A stretch of DNA of 64,000 bases. It comes from Promethearchaeia archaeon (GTDB lineage: Archaea; Asgardarchaeota; Lokiarchaeia; Sigyniarchaeales; SOKP01). The position numbers and the translations under genes are program-made. The stretch's first letter is position 1. Each line of letters begins with the position of its first letter. The DNA lies in NCBI GenBank assembly GCA_046483985.1, contig JAWOCD010000057.1, positions 98,351 to 162,350 on the forward strand, given 5' to 3'. The notes beneath the pieces were generated by a model. That model did no database searches. It saw only the letters and a program-made list of their open reading frames with translations, and was not told the DNA's origin. Shown here one piece after another: positions 47,965 to 54,024 of the stretch.

Positions 47965-49458
47965 TTATTGATATATAGTTAAATTCTTCTTATTCCTTAA
48001 GGCATTTGGAATTTTCTCCAATTTATTGAAGTTTAGATCTAAAATTCTTAACGAGGGCATGTTAGCCACAGAATTAGGTAATCTTTTTATAGCATTCCCC
48101 CAGAGCCTCACAATTTCCAGAGATTCTAAGCTTTCAAGTGATTTTGGAAAAGAGGAAAAGCTATTCCAGTTTAAATTTAATTTTTTAAGTGAATGTAATG
48201 AAGTGACAGAAAGGGGAAGGTCATTTAAGTTATTGTTCCAAAGGGATAGTTCTTCCAAATTTTCAAGATCTTCGAAAATGTCGGGAATATGAGCAATATT
48301 ATTATTAGAAAGATTTAATTTCCTAAGATTGATAAGCTTTCCAATCCAATCGGAGACCTCTGAAATCTGATTGCCTTCTAATCCTAAAACTTCTAAATTT
48401 GGCATAGTTCCAACATTAGTGGGTAGTTCACGAATAGAATTTTTACCCAATTCTAATACTTTCAGTTTTTTTAATTTAGTAATCACTTGAGGAAAATTTC
48501 GTAATTTATTTCCCTTTAGATCCAATATTTCGAGAGTTTTTAGATTTATGAATGAATGTGGAAGGACCTTTATTTTATTTGCCCTCAAGTCGAGTCTTTT
48601 TAATGATTTAAGATCTCCCACAGATTCAGGTAATTCTCTCAGTTTATTTCTCCGAAGACTGAATTCTTCTAAATTCACGAGTTTTTTGAGTGATGCAGAA
48701 ATAGTACGAATGTCATTAGAACTCATATCTAAAAAGGTCAAGGCTTTAAGATAACTAAGTGCATCAGGAACTCGAGAAATTTTATTTAATTTCAAGTCCA
48801 ATTTCTTCAAACCTTTAAGATTTTTAATAGATAGGGGAAAAGATTTTAGTATATTCCAAGAAAATACGTGATTATTCACATTTGATAAGATTAGATTAGT
48901 TACTTTACAATTGATAAGGGTATAAGAGATATTTTCGAACCTTGCTTTTAAGTCTTTTAGAACATAATAATTAATTAGAATATCAGCCAGATATCTGGAT
49001 TCCCTTTCTACTAGGGGTTTTTTTTTCGAGATTTCTTCAACGTCTTGTTTAAACGCTTTTAATTCGATTTTTTCCAGTTCATTAATTAAAAAGTGTTTAG
49101 CATTAATATGAGGGATTGAACCTATTGAATTTATAATAGCAATTAAGGTGTCTAAAGAAGTTTCATGAGAGAAAGCATATTTTAATGGATAGATGGCATC
49201 CTCCTTAAATGTTGATATTAGAACCCGGGCAGCAGTTGCTCTTACTGTTTTCTCTGCGTCAGAGAGGAGAAGATTTTCCAAAATTTTAAAAATATTTGTT
49301 TCTTTGCTCTTTATCTTTTTTATAACGTTTAGGGATTGAACTCTAATATCATTACTCCCGCTGTTCTCAATAAGTGATATAAGTTGAGATAATGCGAACT
49401 TTTTGGTGATTATCTCGTTGGTATATTCTTCCAAAATTTTCTCCGGAGAATGCTTCAT
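47965..49458 (-). CDS. HEAT-repeat plus leucine-rich repeat protein (paralog)
   Basis: LENLLLSDAEKTVRA and about 12 LRR units. Confidence 0.92.
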   Translation of the reverse strand: MKHSPEKILEEYTNEIITKKFALSQLISLIENSGSNDIRVQSLNVIKKIKSKETNIFKILENLLLSDAEKTVRATAARVLISTFKEDAIYPLKYAFSHETSLDTLIAIINSIGSIPHINAKHFLINELEKIELKAFKQDVEEISKKKPLVERESRYLADILINYYVLKDLKARFENISYTLINCKVTNLILSNVNNHVFSWNILKSFPLSIKNLKGLKKLDLKLNKISRVPDALSYLKALTFLDMSSNDIRTISASLKKLVNLEEFSLRRNKLRELPESVGDLKSLKRLDLRANKIKVLPHSFINLKTLEILDLKGNKLRNFPQVITKLKKLKVLELGKNSIRELPTNVGTMPNLEVLGLEGNQISEVSDWIGKLINLRKLNLSNNNIAHIPDIFEDLENLEELSLWNNNLNDLPLSVTSLHSLKKLNLNWNSFSSFPKSLESLESLEIVRLWGNAIKRLPNSVANMPSLRILDLNFNKLEKIPNALRNKKNLTIYQ

Positions 49459-49555
49459 TATTTTACTTTAAAAGGCGTAATTTTTTTAGTTTTACATTTT
49501 AATTTATAAAAAGGTTAAATTTTAATATGCTAAAAATTTAGGTCTAAAAAAGTCT

Positions 49556-50064
49556 TCATTCGGAATATATTGAAACCCTCAGCAACGTATTTCCCATATT
49601 TTGATACTCTTGAAGCGTGGATTTCTTGTTGGGTAAGATTTGGATATCATCGGGAGTCAACGGATATTTATTTCCCGTTTTGGTGGTCCTTAATGTTCCA
49701 TCATAGTCAAAAATTACGGCTTTATTAACATACTGCGTTGAATCAAGTTCTCTTAGAATGGGTGGGCTGTTCTAATAATTTCCTAAATCTATAGAGAACG
49801 GCTTAGGGAGGGAAATCTGAATTGTCTTGCTCTTGAATTTCACCACCAGACAATAGTTTTCCATATTGAAGTTTCATTCGTTTGGCAATATCAAATTGAG
49901 CCTCTGAGAGTTGACCCTTTAACCATCGGCAATAAATAGCAATGTCATATTCCTGTGCTCATTCAATAAAGGGCTTTCTGATTTTGACAGCTGGGAAGGA
50001 GTTATGTATCACAAAACGTGGGGTATCTATTGTTTCCAAGATTTTTTCCCATTCGGTAAAGATG
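49556..50064 (-). pseudogene. Degraded bifunctional P-loop kinase / HAD-IIIA phosphatase (PNKP-like) remnant
   Basis: Frames give FVIHNSFP..IRKPFIE*...CRWL...RMKLQYGKLL...FPP*AVLYRFRK, then after a frameshift NKAVIFDYDGTLR....KYP...DI.ILP; several stops. Confidence 0.65.
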
Positions 50065-50065
50065 T

Positions 50066-51634
50066 TTATATCTGCTCTATTAGCATTCCGCCTAAAATAA
50101 TAGGGCCTCCCGTAGCATTATAAATCTTTTCCGCCTTTTTCAATTTAGCTTCACTTTCCGAATACATTGTGAAGATTTTATCTCCCTCTTCTACTTTAGA
50201 TCCTTGTTTTTCATAGAGTTCAACCCCCGATGGTTTAGAAAAGGGACAACCAAGCGTCTTTGCAATATCATTAATAATGGCATTATCTACCTCGGTAATG
50301 TAACCCGATTTTGAAGAGAAAAAATCCTTTTTATGAGGACCTAATTCTATATCTTCTGGCGTAATTGCTGGATCCCCGCCTTGAGCCTCAATAATTTCTT
50401 TCATTTTCTCGTATGCTTTTCCGGATTTTAAGATTTCTTTCGCAAGGGCTTGGCCAGATCCCTTCTGGGCTTTTCCTCCCATTTCTAAAAGTATACCCGC
50501 TAATCCAGTCGATTTTTCAATAAGCGAATTAGGACCTACAGAATAATCCATTAACAATTTTAAAGCCTCCTTTGCCTCAATTGCAGGTCCAACACAGTGA
50601 CCAATTGGTTGATGAGCTAATGTAGATGCACATTCTGCCTCAACACCAACACTACGGGCAATTTCTTTGAATAATAAAGCAAACTTTTTCCCTTCCTCAG
50701 GAGTAGGAAATTTTGTACCCTCTCCTACAGGTATATCAAGAACTAATTTCTTTACACCCATACTTTTCTTCTTACAAAGGATAGAAGGAATCATCAAACC
50801 CACCGGATCCATATGAAGCGGTCGTTCTACGCCAATTAAAACATTATCTGCAGGACTAATATCCAACGCTCCACCCCATACAATACAAGCTTTTACCTCA
50901 GAAACTAATTTTTTTATTTCTTCAGATTTAAAGGCAACGGGGGCAAGAACTTCCATGGAATCTGCCGTACCTGAAGGTGACGTTATCGCACGGGTTGATG
51001 TCTTCGGGATTGTTAATCCCGCCGCCGCTACGATTGGTACTATGATAAGTGAGACCTTATTTCCAGGCACTCCGCCCTTCAGCTATATTGAAGATGCTTC
51101 AATATATGTGCTGTGCTTATCATAGACATCGTATCCAAAATCAAAAACTTCTCCGGTTTTTGTTTCCGCCATCGTAAGAGAAGTCATCTCACTATTATTT
51201 AAGCCATTAATTTCAACTCCCGTGATAAAAGCTGCAAGATCAATATTTGATAAATGACCTAAAACTGCATCGTCAACAATACTATTAATCTCCTCGGCAC
51301 TTAAAACATTTCCTTTAATTTTCTTTTGAATAAATTTAAACGAATTTGGGGGATCTGCAGCTTTAACTGAGACATTTTCAATAAAATCGGTATTTGCTAT
51401 AGAACGTAAAGTATCAGAAAAAATTCCGATCTCTCCTTCAGAAATAAGATTACCAGAATAATCAATTCTGACAATTCCTACCCAATATTTCTTATCTATT
51501 GATTTAGTCTCCTTATTTTTTACAATAATCCGCTCTCCCGCTTTTTGACCTAATTTTTCGGCGTCCTTTGAATTTAGAACAACATCCTTTTGATTTCCAG
51601 TCTCAAAATCGATTTTTTTAACTGTTAATTTCAT
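50066..51634 (-). CDS. deoA: AMP phosphorylase (thymidine phosphorylase family), two exons: join 51634-51108 and 51077-50066, 512 aa
   Basis: Exon 1 ends DKHS-AC and exon 2 starts G-GGVPGNK...IPKTSTRAITSPSGTADSME. Joining them restores DKHSTGGVPGNK. Confidence 0.88.
51078..51107 (-). other. Candidate 30-nt bulge-helix-bulge (BHB) mRNA intron
   Basis: Minus strand: CAGC-AC^A-TATATTGAAG-CAT-CTTCAATATA-GCTG-AA^G. This gives a 4-bp helix, two 3-nt bulges, a perfect 10-bp intron stem and an in-frame TAG inside. Confidence 0.8.
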
Positions 51635-51757
51635 AATAATCTGAAATCTCTTTTTTTTATTAAACTATAATCATCTTTTTCTAATGTTTAACAAGGTATA
51701 AATAAAGAAATAAATGATATTTAAAATTTTATCGAAAAAACTTGTTGATTTTAAATT

Positions 51758-52582
51758 CTATTCATATGAATTTGGATCATCATCCACAACACTAAAATCC
51801 TCATTCAAATCATCTAATTGTCTCATATCTTCAGCGGTTAACTCGAAATCGAAAATTTCGGCATTTTCCTTAATATGCGATCTATTACTAGATTTAGGAA
51901 TTTCGATAATATTATGCTGCAGGCCCCACCGTAACATGATCTGAGCAGGATATTTATCATATTTTTTGGCAATAGACTGCAGAATGGGATTATCAAATTT
52001 TCGACCTCGTGCCAATGGACTATAGGCTTCTAATTGAATCTGATTATCAGCGCAAAATTCTAAAAGATCTTTATTATAGAGAAAAGGGGAAAATTCAAAT
52101 TGATTTATCGCCGGAACTGTTTCACTTTCTTTAAATAATTCTTGCAAGTGTCTAATCGTGAAATTGCTCACGCCTATTGCCCGAGTTTTACCCTCTTCGT
52201 AGAGTTTTTCTAACGCCTTCCAAGTATCTAATCGTTTTGACACGGGCCAGTGGATTAAATAAAGATCTATATAATCAGTTTGTAATTTTCGAAGACTTGA
52301 TTCAAACGCCTTGAGGGTGGAATTATATCCTTGGTCAGAATTCCAGACTTTCGTGGTAATGAAAATATCTTCTCTGGGAATTCCATATTCCTTCAGCGCT
52401 TTTCCGATTTGCCGTTCATTTCCGTAGATTGTGGCGGTATCGATCAATCGATATCCCGCATCTAAAGCCCACTTTACGGAATCTTGCACTTCTTTTCCGG
52501 TAAGCAACCATGTTCCCAATCCAAAAATTGGCATATCTACTCCATTATTTAATTCCCATTTTGACTCAATAGATAAGGTCAT
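51758..52582 (-). CDS. Aldo/keto reductase
   Basis: GLGTW, GYRLIDTA.IY, DLYLIHWP, IGVSNF and IPKS. Confidence 0.95.
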   Translation of the reverse strand: MTLSIESKWELNNGVDMPIFGLGTWLLTGKEVQDSVKWALDAGYRLIDTATIYGNERQIGKALKEYGIPREDIFITTKVWNSDQGYNSTLKAFESSLRKLQTDYIDLYLIHWPVSKRLDTWKALEKLYEEGKTRAIGVSNFTIRHLQELFKESETVPAINQFEFSPFLYNKDLLEFCADNQIQLEAYSPLARGRKFDNPILQSIAKKYDKYPAQIMLRWGLQHNIIEIPKSSNRSHIKENAEIFDFELTAEDMRQLDDLNEDFSVVDDDPNSYE

Positions 52583-52707: not shown

Positions 52708-54024
52708 TCATAGATTGAGCGAAAACGGAAAAATCTCTGTATATTCGATAATATTTTGATCAGGGTCCTCAAATTTAATATCTAATTTAATTTCATAATC
52801 TCCCGAATCAATTGGGCGTATATTGAGCTGCCAGACCATTTCATCGTTTGAAGGAAGGGAATAAATTTGTTTTTTGGTAGTGCCGCGCATAATCCGTAAT
52901 TCTTCTGGGAATTCCACATTCATTTCCACATTCAGAGCATCTCCTTGGCTGTTATTTTCTATGGTGAATTCTAATGGAAAGGTTTTCCCGACTAACGGAG
53001 TTTTAAGAGTATCCATCGAGATATCCAAAGAAGGAGGGGGAGAAATTAATTTCGGGTGAATGGTCTTCGTTTTTAGAAAGAAAATAAACTTCTCATCAAT
53101 TTCGCAAGTTAATAACAAGGGTCCAATAAAAGGGGTGTCAATCTGAAAGTGTGGATTAACAATAAACTCAAATTCTTCTTTCTCTCCCGATTTAATGGTC
53201 TGCGGCATTTCTGGCTTTTTACCCGTGGTAAAATTATCAGAGACGGACACTCCAATATTTGAAATTTCGATCTTTTCTATCTCATAATTATGGAATTCAT
53301 AATCCGAAATAGCCAGTAAAGGAGTCGTATCAATCATTAAGTTCAACTTAATTTCATCGTTTGTGGTGTATTCATCCTTATCGAGCATTAATTTAGTTTT
53401 AAGAGTCACATGAGCTTTAGCGACAACTAAAACTTCTTTTATTAATTTCTCTTCTGCATTCCTAAATTTATATTTCTCAAAATTCTGTTCTACTTTATCG
53501 AGATATTTTTTATTTTTATCACGTATCGCGATGGTCAAGTTTTTAACTAAAAGGATAAGGGGATTTTCGTTAAAATATTCTGCATTTACCTTATTTTTTA
53601 CTTGCTTAATCATTGTTAGCCCTACATCTTGTTTTCCTTTAATAAATAGGCAGAAATAAGACAGAGAAGAGAAGAGAACATAATGAAAAAATCTATCCTC
53701 ATCTTTTCTCAGATGGGCTACATATTTCAAAGCATTCTTAAAGAATTCATTTGCCTCTTTATATTTATCAAGAAATAGACATGCATCTCCGCCTTTTCTG
53801 AGTGATTCAATAACATCATCATATCTTTCATTGTTCAAAAAAGCTTTCGCCGCTTTATAGTATGCCTCTTTTGCAACCTCAAATTCATGTAACTCATAAT
53901 AATTTTCCGCAGCGCTGGTAAAATATTTTCCCGCTTTCTTGAATTTGTCCGCTTTTAAATATAATTTACCTTTTCGTATGCCTTTTTCCGCTTCTTCTCG
54001 TGGATCCTTACTAAATAAGCCCAT
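52708..54024 (-). CDS. SNAP/TPR-like helical protein with C-terminal Ig-like domains
   Basis: Repeated A..Y..AA..F helices followed by beta-rich FPLEFTIEN...WQLNIRP...GDYEI domains. Confidence 0.65.
   Translation of the reverse strand: MGLFSKDPREEAEKGIRKGKLYLKADKFKKAGKYFTSAAENYYELHEFEVAKEAYYKAAKAFLNNERYDDVIESLRKGGDACLFLDKYKEANEFFKNALKYVAHLRKDEDRFFHYVLFSSLSYFCLFIKGKQDVGLTMIKQVKNKVNAEYFNENPLILLVKNLTIAIRDKNKKYLDKVEQNFEKYKFRNAEEKLIKEVLVVAKAHVTLKTKLMLDKDEYTTNDEIKLNLMIDTTPLLAISDYEFHNYEIEKIEISNIGVSVSDNFTTGKKPEMPQTIKSGEKEEFEFIVNPHFQIDTPFIGPLLLTCEIDEKFIFFLKTKTIHPKLISPPPSLDISMDTLKTPLVGKTFPLEFTIENNSQGDALNVEMNVEFPEELRIMRGTTKKQIYSLPSNDEMVWQLNIRPIDSGDYEIKLDIKFEDPDQNIIEYTEIFPFSLNL

What the first reader, a model, noticed from the sequence alone, without database searches (positions are those of the whole stretch)
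51071..51120. Candidate tRNA-type (bulge-helix-bulge) intron inside an Asgard protein-coding gene (AMP phosphorylase)
Seen in sequence: the gene breaks exactly within its phosphate-binding motif. The minus strand reads GAT AAG CAC AGC AC|ATATATTGAAGCATCTTCAATATAGCTGAA|G GGC GGA GTG CCT GGA AAT AAG. The segment folds as a CAGC/GCTG 4-bp helix flanked by two 3-nt bulges (ACA and AAG) on opposite strands, closed by a perfect 10-bp hairpin (TATATTGAAG/CTTCAATATA). Established: archaeal splicing endonuclease EndA cuts BHB motifs after the second base of each bulge and RtcB ligates; crenarchaeal cbf5 is the classic mRNA example. Cutting at those positions removes 30 nt (51078-51107), including the in-frame TAG, and creates ACG. 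That gives DKHS-T-GGVPGNK, the family consensus, in a 512-aa protein. The exon-side outer helix is weak (A.G, C-G, G-C), so the motif is a relaxed BHB/BHL. Inference: this Asgard lineage splices mRNA with tRNA-splicing machinery, so nucleotide salvage could be gated by splicing, as in Ire1/HAC1-type non-spliceosomal splicing. Other 'split' Asgard genes may hide similar introns.
Basis: partly seen in the sequence, partly recalled or inferred. Interest (0 to 1): 0.95.

Follow-up and report, generated by a model that had tools for sequence, protein, structure and literature searches.

The report
tRNA-type mini-intron in Asgard AMP phosphorylase
The only AMP phosphorylase gene of this Loki-type Asgard archaeon is interrupted, inside its phosphate-binding motif, by a 30-base hairpin shaped like an archaeal tRNA intron; related genomes keep it with compensating mutations, so the mRNA almost certainly has to be cut and re-joined by the tRNA-splicing enzymes, although no spliced RNA has been seen.

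Summary
On the minus strand, 30 nt (window 51107-51078) with an in-frame TAG split DKHS-T-GGVPGNK. The RNA folds as a 4-bp helix CAGC/GCUG, 3-nt bulges ACA and AAG, and a 10-bp hairpin.

- **Conservation:** 18 distinct related Promethearchaeota genes carry an insert at the same codon. Inserts are 29, 30 or 31 nt, and every one has a stop or a frameshift.
- **Covariation:** 97% of pair cells are paired and 10 of 15 pairs show compensatory changes. These include exon wobble positions that covary with the intron and with each other.
- **Product:** cutting after the second base of each bulge gives a 512-aa protein. It is exactly colinear with intron-less orthologues.
- **Selection:** dN/dS is 0.06-0.16, the same as in intron-less genes, so this is not a pseudogene.
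- **Machinery:** the genome encodes a crenarchaeal-type EndA catalytic subunit and two RtcB ligases.
- **Other introns:** I read two more 30-nt introns of this kind in the same genome, in EF-2 and in a sugar dehydrogenase.

Splicing itself is inferred; the RNA data did not cover the junction. Nothing supports a HAC1-like regulatory switch.

The scan had already reported this intron in several other Asgard genomes. I found no paper describing it. It is a new member of a known kind (crenarchaeal cbf5).

The parts
51108..51634 (-). Exon 1 of AMP phosphorylase (ATG 51634; 527 nt; ends with AC, the first two bases of the Thr codon)
   Evidence: ORF list and translation. Pfam Glycos_trans_3N. NCBIfam TIGR03327 profile positions 1-165. 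Open for at least 173 codons in all 13 intron-bearing relatives first examined.
51078..51107 (-). 30-nt BHB intron (A + 10-bp stem/CAU loop/10-bp stem + GCUG + AA); holds the in-frame TAG at 51085-51083
   Evidence: It appears as a clean 10-codon gap against an intron-less orthologue. Homologous inserts of 29-31 nt sit at the same codon in 18 distinct loci.
51110..51113 (-). 5' strand of the central 4-bp helix H (CAGC; exon: His third base plus Ser AGC)
   Evidence: Pairs with 51080-51083. 100% of cells are paired in 13 sequences, with UA to CG compensatory change at the His wobble position. All intron-bearing genes use Ser AGY.
51107..51109 (-). 5' bulge ACA; predicted cut between 51108 and 51107
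   Evidence: ACA in 17 of 18 loci and ACU in 1. Unpaired in the MFE and RNAalifold structures.
51084..51106 (-). Intron hairpin h' (stem 51106-51097 with 51093-51084, loop 51096-51094)
   Evidence: Perfect 10-bp stem here. In relatives, 8 of 9 stem pairs show compensatory changes.
51080..51083 (-). 3' strand of helix H (GCUG; intron)
51077..51079 (-). 3' bulge AAG; predicted cut between 51078 and 51077 (G becomes the third base of the Thr codon)
   Evidence: AA|N in 18 of 18 loci. Splicing always gives ACN = Thr, as in intron-less orthologues.
51074..51076 (-). 3' strand of the short exon-exon outer helix h (GGC): G51076 opposite A51114 (mismatch), G51075-C51115, C51074-G51116
   Evidence: The Lys wobble base pairs with the Gly wobble base in 16 of 18 intron-bearing genes (A-U 14, G-C 2) against 20 of 55 intron-less ones.
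51114..51116 (-). 5' strand of the outer helix h (G of Lys AAG, then CA of His CAC)
   Evidence: As above.
50066..51077 (-). Exon 2 of AMP phosphorylase (1009 nt plus stop codon 50068-50066)
   Evidence: Pfam Glycos_transf_3 and PYNP_C. TIGR03327 profile 170-500, 449.7 bits. Closest solved chains 4GA4/4GA5, from chain residue 169 of 513. 336 open codons in every intron-bearing relative.

Best explanation
The 30 nt at 51107-51078 (minus strand) are an archaeal bulge-helix-bulge intron inside the coding sequence of the genome's single AMP phosphorylase gene.

Proposed mechanism:
- In the pre-mRNA, the last four exon-1 bases before the Thr codon (CAGC) pair with the intron's GCUG.
- This helix is flanked by two 3-nt bulges on opposite strands. 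It is closed on one side by the intron's 10-bp hairpin and on the other by a short exon-exon helix.
- The tRNA-splicing endonuclease EndA cuts after the second base of each bulge.
- RtcB joins the exons (…CAC AGC AC|G GGC GGA…) and probably circularises the intron.
- Only the spliced mRNA encodes the 512-aa enzyme with an intact DKHSTGGVPGNK phosphate-binding loop.

Splicing is most likely constitutive, and the intron a tolerated selfish or neutral passenger rather than a switch.

Shown here: the structure, its conservation and covariation, the exactness of the predicted product, selection on both exons, and the presence of the enzymes. Inferred by analogy with crenarchaeal cbf5: that EndA and RtcB actually process this RNA.
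For: - **Structure:** the MFE fold equals the proposed motif. RNAalifold, given no structure, predicts the same H helix, 3-nt bulge and hairpin on 13 sequences.
- **Covariation:** 97.4% of cells are paired and 10 of 15 pairs have compensatory changes. 0 of 500 shuffles reach the observed values, and slid controls give 26-43% paired.
- **Constraint reaches into exon wobble positions:** the His third base covaries with the intron (UA/CG). The Lys third base covaries with the Gly third base (16 of 18 paired against 20 of 55 in intron-less genes).
- **Same site in 18 distinct loci, from MAGs of many studies:** lengths are 30 (14 loci), 31 (3) and 29 (1). Each carries a stop or a frameshift.
- **Exact product:** the canonical cut rule gives DKHS-T-GGVPGNK and an open frame in every case. 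The spliced CDS is exactly colinear with the closest intron-less orthologues, 1539 = 1539 nt and 1542 = 1542 nt, and shows a clean 10-codon gap.
- **Selection:** dN/dS is 0.06-0.16 among intron-bearing genes for both exons, against 0.09 for intron-less genes, with dS near saturation. Against the closest relative there are 232 synonymous and 70 non-synonymous codon differences.
- **Single copy** in this genome.
- **Gene identity:** the two exons hit TIGR03327 profile positions 1-165 and 170-500, summing to 561 bits against a cut-off of 535.
- **Machinery:** an EndA catalytic subunit best matches chain B of 3P1Z/3AJV at full length, including the N-terminal loop region. Two RtcB genes are present. 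[quoted passage not shown]
- **Not an isolated case:** two further 30-nt BHB introns in the same genome restore the EF-2 P-loop and a Rossmann GxGxxG motif.
Against: No spliced RNA was observed. The only RNA-library contig found covers exon 1 (51231-51477), not the junction. Searches for a spliced form among proteins and among JGI contigs found none.

The exon-exon outer helix is only 2 bp after an A.G mismatch. RNAalifold does not predict it.

The second EndA paralogue, present in all 24 relatives searched, was not found in this assembly.

The fold energy of the single sequence is unremarkable (z = -1.28).
Confidence: 0.9

Rival explanations
1. Regulated switch. The intron is spliced only under some conditions, so AMP phosphorylase and nucleotide salvage are gated at the RNA level, like Ire1/HAC1 or XBP1.
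For: The unspliced RNA cannot give active enzyme because of the TAG at 51085-51083, so any change in splicing efficiency would change enzyme output. No tool result speaks for regulation itself.
Against: Intron-less alleles are interleaved with intron-bearing ones throughout the family, even within genera. One intron-less allele is simply the exact spliced junction. Loss is therefore tolerated and no function depends on the intron. Loop and stem sequences are not conserved; only pairing is, so there is no sign of a binding site for a regulator. Similar introns sit in EF-2, a housekeeping gene unlikely to share regulation with salvage.
Confidence: 0.08
2. Decaying pseudogene. An insertion with a stop codon inactivated the gene.
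For: There is an in-frame TAG, and public annotation calls such genes truncated or hypothetical.
Against: The insert has been kept at the same codon in 18 distinct loci whose synonymous sites are near saturation. Both exons remain open and dN/dS is 0.06-0.16, as in intact orthologues. Compensatory changes preserve an RNA structure. This is the only copy in a 97% complete genome.
Confidence: 0.02
3. Split gene. Two polypeptides (about 176 and 334 aa) are translated separately and assemble without any RNA splicing.
For: In this genome exon 2 happens to start with GTG (51070), which the ORF finder takes as a start codon.
Against: In relatives that codon is GTT or GTC, which are not start codons. 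The break lies inside the phosphate-binding loop. This model explains neither the covarying RNA structure nor the covariation between exon wobble bases and intron bases. The 29- and 31-nt inserts show the same architecture.
Confidence: 0.03
4. Translational recoding. The ribosome hops over the hairpin (T4 gene 60 type), or the stop codons are read through.
For: In many relatives a stop codon directly follows the Thr codon ACA, and a stable hairpin follows it. This superficially resembles gene 60.
Against: No matching landing codon (ACN) precedes GGN in any of the 18 sequences. The codon before GGN is AAA, AAG or AAT. Relatives carry up to three different stop codons and frameshifting lengths, which excludes readthrough. 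The 3-4-3 geometry and the exon-intron covariation are not features of bypassing.
Confidence: 0.02

Closest known systems
BHB intron in the cbf5 (pseudouridine synthase) pre-mRNA of Crenarchaeota (Watanabe 2002; Yoshinari 2006; Yokobori 2009, PMC2738675)
   Same: A short EndA-type intron lies inside a protein-coding sequence and must be removed to restore the reading frame and a conserved protein. The host has a two-subunit-type EndA. Distribution among related species is patchy, with gain and loss.
   Different: The gene (AMP phosphorylase) and the phylum (Promethearchaeota, Asgard) are both different, and the introns are not homologous. This genome carries at least three such introns in different genes. 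cbf5 splicing was shown experimentally, whereas here it is inferred.
Non-canonical tRNA introns of Asgard archaea (bioRxiv 10.64898/2026.10.13.758758; PMC11291895)
   Same: The same motif (3-nt bulges around a 4-bp helix), the same predicted enzymes, a similar size (26-29-nt tRNA introns called by aragorn in this genome), and the same lineages.
   Different: The host RNA is an mRNA. [quoted passage not shown]
EndA-dependent processing of an mRNA in Haloferax volcanii (PMC7714728)
   Same: The splicing endonuclease acts on a BHB in a messenger RNA.
   Different: I know that paper only from its abstract and the search listing, and I did not read its details. It concerns a euryarchaeon, and I found no indication there of an interrupted conserved coding motif like this one.
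Ire1/HAC1 (XBP1) unconventional splicing in eukaryotes
   Same: Non-spliceosomal mRNA splicing in which an endonuclease is followed by a tRNA-type ligase (RtcB in animals).
   Different: That system uses Ire1 and twin stem-loops and is stress-regulated. It also changes the C-terminus of a working protein. Here the motif is a BHB, the enzyme would be EndA, and there is no evidence of regulation.

Membership tests
Archaeal bulge-helix-bulge (EndA-type) intron | [quoted passage not shown] | tested here: met
   CAGC/GCUG with bulges ACA and AAG. The helix is 100% paired in 13 sequences with one compensatory pair. RNAalifold predicts it independently.
Archaeal bulge-helix-bulge (EndA-type) intron | Flanking helices: h' within the intron and h between the exons | tested here: met
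   h' is 9-10 bp, and 8 of 9 pairs show compensatory changes. h is short: an A.G mismatch followed by 2 bp. Its variable pair is kept in 16 of 18 intron-bearing genes against 20 of 55 intron-less ones. RNAalifold does not predict h, so h is the weakest part.
Archaeal bulge-helix-bulge (EndA-type) intron | Cutting after the second base of each bulge yields the functional RNA | tested here: met
   The rule gives Thr (ACN) and an open frame in all intron-bearing loci. The product is colinear with intron-less orthologues, with no base lost or gained.
Archaeal bulge-helix-bulge (EndA-type) intron | Host encodes the splicing endonuclease and the RtcB ligase | tested here: met
   The EndA catalytic subunit is at C32:38230-38829 (TIGR00324, 112.9 bits). 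Two RtcB genes are present. The second EndA paralogue seen in all 24 relatives was not found in this assembly.
Archaeal bulge-helix-bulge (EndA-type) intron | Excision observed in RNA (spliced junction, circular intron) | tested here: inconclusive
   The RNA-library contig covers only exon 1. No spliced form was found among protein clusters or JGI contigs.
AMP phosphorylase (NCBIfam TIGR03327, archaeal DeoA) | Full-length match to the equivalog profile above its cut-off | tested here: met
   Exon 1 matches profile 1-165 (111.6 bits) and exon 2 matches 170-500 (449.7 bits). The simple sum, 561, exceeds the cut-off of 535, though each piece alone falls below it. The closest solved chains are 4GA4/4GA5/4GA6. 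RuBisCO large-subunit homologues are present in the genome. Enzyme activity was not tested.
Ire1/HAC1-type regulated unconventional splicing | Twin stem-loop sites, an Ire1 nuclease and condition-dependent splicing | not tested
   The motif here is a BHB, not twin 7-nt loops. I did not search for Ire1, and no expression data exist. Repeated precise loss of the intron argues against a required switch.
Programmed translational bypass (T4 gene 60 type) | Matched take-off and landing codons around a hairpin | tested here: not met
   The take-off codon would be ACA. The codon before GGN is AAA, AAG or AAT in all 18 loci.

The most novel reading that the evidence does not exclude
The deoA intron may belong to a family of about-30-nt EndA-dependent mini-introns. 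Such introns would move between tRNA genes and protein-coding genes in Lokiarchaeial Asgard archaea and settle in codons of invariant glycine-rich nucleotide- or phosphate-binding loops (deoA DKHST|GG, EF-2 AHID|HGKTT, dehydrogenase GMGY|VG). If so, routine non-spliceosomal splicing of housekeeping mRNAs is a normal part of gene expression in the closest archaeal relatives of eukaryotes.
Probability: 0.35. Interest if true: 0.85.

Novelty: new member of a known kind. Interest (0 to 1): 0.68.

Why it matters
In the papers I could search, splicing of protein-coding RNA by the tRNA-splicing enzymes was documented in archaea essentially for one gene, crenarchaeal cbf5.

A second, well-supported case lies in a different gene and in the Asgard lineage. 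Together with at least two more in the same genome, one of them in the essential EF-2 gene, it suggests that interrupted protein genes are a regular feature of some relatives of eukaryotes.

There are practical consequences too. About a third of the closest database entries for this enzyme (40 of the top 120 clusters) are annotated as truncated or hypothetical proteins. Metabolic reconstructions of these genomes will therefore wrongly score the AMP pathway as broken.

The intron also gives a clean system for asking two questions: how exon sequence constrains where such introns can persist, and how they are lost precisely.

Tried and rejected
- **RNA evidence:** one metatranscriptome run holds a 247-nt contig identical to 51231-51477 (exon 1). 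Nothing covers the junction, and the DNA run also has a hole there. This says nothing about splicing.
- **Spliced form among proteins:** I looked for a full-length protein near-identical to a 'truncated' one in the 5.8-billion protein set. The best pair is 97% identical, and the long one comes from a MAG, so it is an intron-less relative and not a transcript.
- **Spliced junction in JGI contigs:** the scan gave 4 hits, none more than 84% identical to a known intron-bearing gene.
- **Genome-wide census by structure plus open frames:** the scan recovers deoA, EF-2 and the dehydrogenase intron. But exact excision gives 63 loci against 41 and 69 for excision off by 1 or 2 nt, so there is no excess and no usable count.
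- **Co-conversion or recombination tract around the junction:** intron-plus and intron-minus pairs are 12-30% divergent in DNA and show no local excess of substitutions, so the test is uninformative.
- **Second intron in genus g8 orthologues (open frame about 420 aa):** rejected, because they simply lack the N-terminal domain.
- **Second EndA subunit:** the weak hit on C18 lies in another frame of a 488-aa ORF and is spurious. A relative's paralogue finds only the catalytic subunit.
- **Repeat or mobile DNA element:** the 30 nt are unique in the genome.
- **Known RNA family:** Rfam finds none in 49500-52500.

Full report
**Observation.** The minus strand of window 51121-51071 reads GAT AAG CAC AGC AC|A TATATTGAAG CAT CTTCAATATA GCTG AA|G GGC GGA, exactly as reported. 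A 183-aa ORF (51634-51083) and a 334-aa ORF (51070-50066) lie in the same frame, separated by a single TAG. The first carries the Glycos_trans_3N domain, and the second carries Glycos_transf_3 and PYNP_C. Against NCBIfam the two pieces match the AMP phosphorylase equivalog TIGR03327 at profile positions 1-165 and 170-500. Their scores sum to 561 bits against a cut-off of 535. The closest solved chains are 4GA4/4GA5/4GA6, where exon 2 begins at chain residue 169 of 513. The minimum-free-energy fold of the 81-nt region is the proposed one: a CAGC/GCUG helix, a 3-nt bulge and a 10-bp hairpin. Its energy is not unusual for the composition (z = -1.28), so the single sequence proves little. The 30 nt occur once in the 4.06-Mb, 35% G+C genome, and no Rfam family matches there.

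**Comparative evidence.** A six-frame search of 60 related genomes found the gene in 58. In 12 of them, besides this genome, the frame breaks at the same place. Reading the DNA shows an insert at exactly the same codon. Adding named MAGs gives 18 distinct intron-bearing loci, all Promethearchaeota-type Asgard archaea from many different studies. The inserts are 30 nt (14 loci), 31 nt (3) and 29 nt (1). Each has one to three stop codons or shifts the frame. The stems differ in sequence, while the bulges are ACA (17 of 18) and AA|N (18 of 18). Intron-less orthologues read DKHSTGGVPGNK.

On the 13-sequence alignment A1, the named structure has 97.4% of cells paired. Ten of 15 pairs show changes on both sides. 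None of 500 shuffles reaches the observed values, and slid controls give only 26-43% pairing. RNAalifold, given no structure, predicts the same central helix, bulge and hairpin.

The constraint reaches into the exons:
- The His wobble base covaries with the intron (UA or CG).
- Every intron-bearing gene uses Ser AGY, which helix H needs. Intron-less genes use TCN (34) or AGY (21).
- The Lys wobble base pairs with the Gly wobble base in 16 of 18 intron-bearing genes, against 20 of 55 intron-less ones. This last comparison is between related sequences, so the nominal p-value overstates the case.

**The predicted product.** Cutting after the second base of each bulge removes 51107-51078 and joins AC to G. 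This gives Thr and a 512-codon frame. The same rule restores an open frame in all relatives, including the 29- and 31-nt cases. An intron-less orthologue aligns to this locus with a clean 10-codon gap. The spliced CDS is exactly as long as that of the closest, syntenic, intron-less relative: 1539 nt each, 86% amino-acid identity. A closer pair (88% DNA identity) is also colinear, and there the intron-less allele reads AAA CAT AGT AC|A GGT, which is the exact spliced junction.

**Not a pseudogene.** Among the intron-bearing genes, dN/dS is 0.06-0.16 for both exons, the same as for intron-less genes (0.09), while synonymous sites are near saturation. Against the closest relative, 232 codons differ synonymously and 70 non-synonymously. 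The gene is single-copy here.

**Machinery.** The genome encodes an EndA catalytic subunit (C32:38230-38829). Its best solved match is chain B of 3P1Z/3AJV, over its full length and without a gap through the N-terminal KPR loop. The homotetrameric 1A79 enzyme aligns only from residue 69. From memory, 3P1Z and 3AJV are the Aeropyrum pernix two-subunit enzyme and that loop is the crenarchaeal-specific loop. PMC5829648 states that Asgard archaea have the (alpha-beta)2 type with this L1 loop, which gives broad substrate specificity. There are two RtcB genes. All 24 relatives searched have two EndA paralogues. In this 97% complete assembly I found only one.

**History.** On a quick maximum-likelihood tree of 76 proteins, intron-bearing rows are interleaved with intron-less ones. 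Well-supported branches force at least seven changes of state. The state also varies within genera. The intron was seen only in one family of the order. The simplest reading is an old intron with repeated precise losses, but repeated gain at a competent site is not excluded. Pairs are too divergent for a co-conversion tract to be visible.

**Other introns in this genome.** My structure-plus-ORF scan cannot give a census, because it shows no excess over off-by-one controls. It did point to two cases that I then read directly. In EF-2, a 30-nt insert restores …SIVAHID|HGKTT…. In a UDP-sugar-dehydrogenase-like gene, a 30-nt insert restores …VVIGMGY|VGIPMAA…. Earlier notes of this scan report both, and they also report the deoA intron in several other genomes. 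Aragorn finds only 29 tRNAs here, a few with 26-29-nt introns. That fits the heavily interrupted tRNA genes published for Asgard archaea (bioRxiv 10.64898/2026.10.13.758758; PMC11291895).

**What is not shown.** No RNA read crosses the junction, so splicing is inferred from structure, conservation and analogy with cbf5. Only pairing is conserved, not sequence, and the intron has been lost precisely many times.

**Literature.** Six searches of the held library found cbf5 in Crenarchaeota (PMC2738675 and its references), EndA substrates in Haloferax (PMC7714728), and Asgard tRNA introns. None describes BHB introns in Asgard protein-coding genes. Subscription journals are not covered by that library.

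**Verdict.** This is a real and ordinary-looking BHB intron in an unusual place. It is a new member of a known kind, and it is of clear interest because of its host lineage and because it is not alone in the genome.

Noticed in passing
G000 contig C115, L123:243-272 (+): A 30-nt BHB intron with stop codons lies in the EF-2 gene. Exon 1 ends …SIVAHID and exon 2 (717 codons) starts HGKTT, so splicing restores the GTPase P-loop. The structure is helix ATTG/CAAT, bulges ATT and AAC, and a 9-bp stem.
   Followed up: partly
G000 contig C45, L124:167-196 (+): A 30-nt BHB intron lies in a UDP-sugar-dehydrogenase-like gene. Splicing joins …KIVVIGMGY to VGIPMAALLA…, restoring the Rossmann GxGxxG loop. 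The structure is helix GGCT/GGCT and a perfect 10-bp stem with a TAT loop.
   Followed up: partly
deoA (window 51077-51113), L123, L124: All three mRNA introns read here are 30 nt long and end in AA (3' bulge AA|N). All sit in codons of invariant glycine-rich phosphate- or nucleotide-binding loops. This may reflect where the exon half of the motif stays constant, or where imprecise loss would be lethal.
   Followed up: no
G000 whole genome; relatives G001-G045: All 24 relatives searched have two EndA paralogues, scoring about 100 and about 60-72 bits. This 97% complete assembly shows only the catalytic one (C32:38230-38829). The other may be unassembled.
   Followed up: partly
Protein clusters P0001-P0120: 40 of the 120 closest protein clusters are 334-341-aa 'truncated' forms. 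Public sources name some of them 'hypothetical protein' or 'thymidine phosphorylase'. These are intron-bearing AMP phosphorylase genes called as two ORFs.
   Followed up: partly
G000 whole genome: Aragorn calls only 29 tRNA genes, several with odd geometry and three with 26-29-nt introns. This suggests many tRNA genes are too interrupted for standard finders.
   Followed up: no
L034-L037 (genus g8 relatives): Their AMP/thymidine phosphorylase orthologues lack the N-terminal 95 or so residues that the rest of the family has. They have no intron at the DKHST site.
   Followed up: yes
window 51231-51477: A 247-nt contig of a salt-lake metatranscriptome library is identical to exon 1, and a freshwater-sediment DNA run holds identical pieces of the gene. 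The organism, or a very close strain, is therefore present in those samples.
   Followed up: partly
window 47965-49458 (-), 51758-52582 (-), 52708-54024 (-): The neighbours of deoA are a 497-aa leucine-rich-repeat protein, an aldo-keto reductase and a 438-aa protein. At least some of them recur beside deoA in relatives (L127, L137, L138).
   Followed up: no
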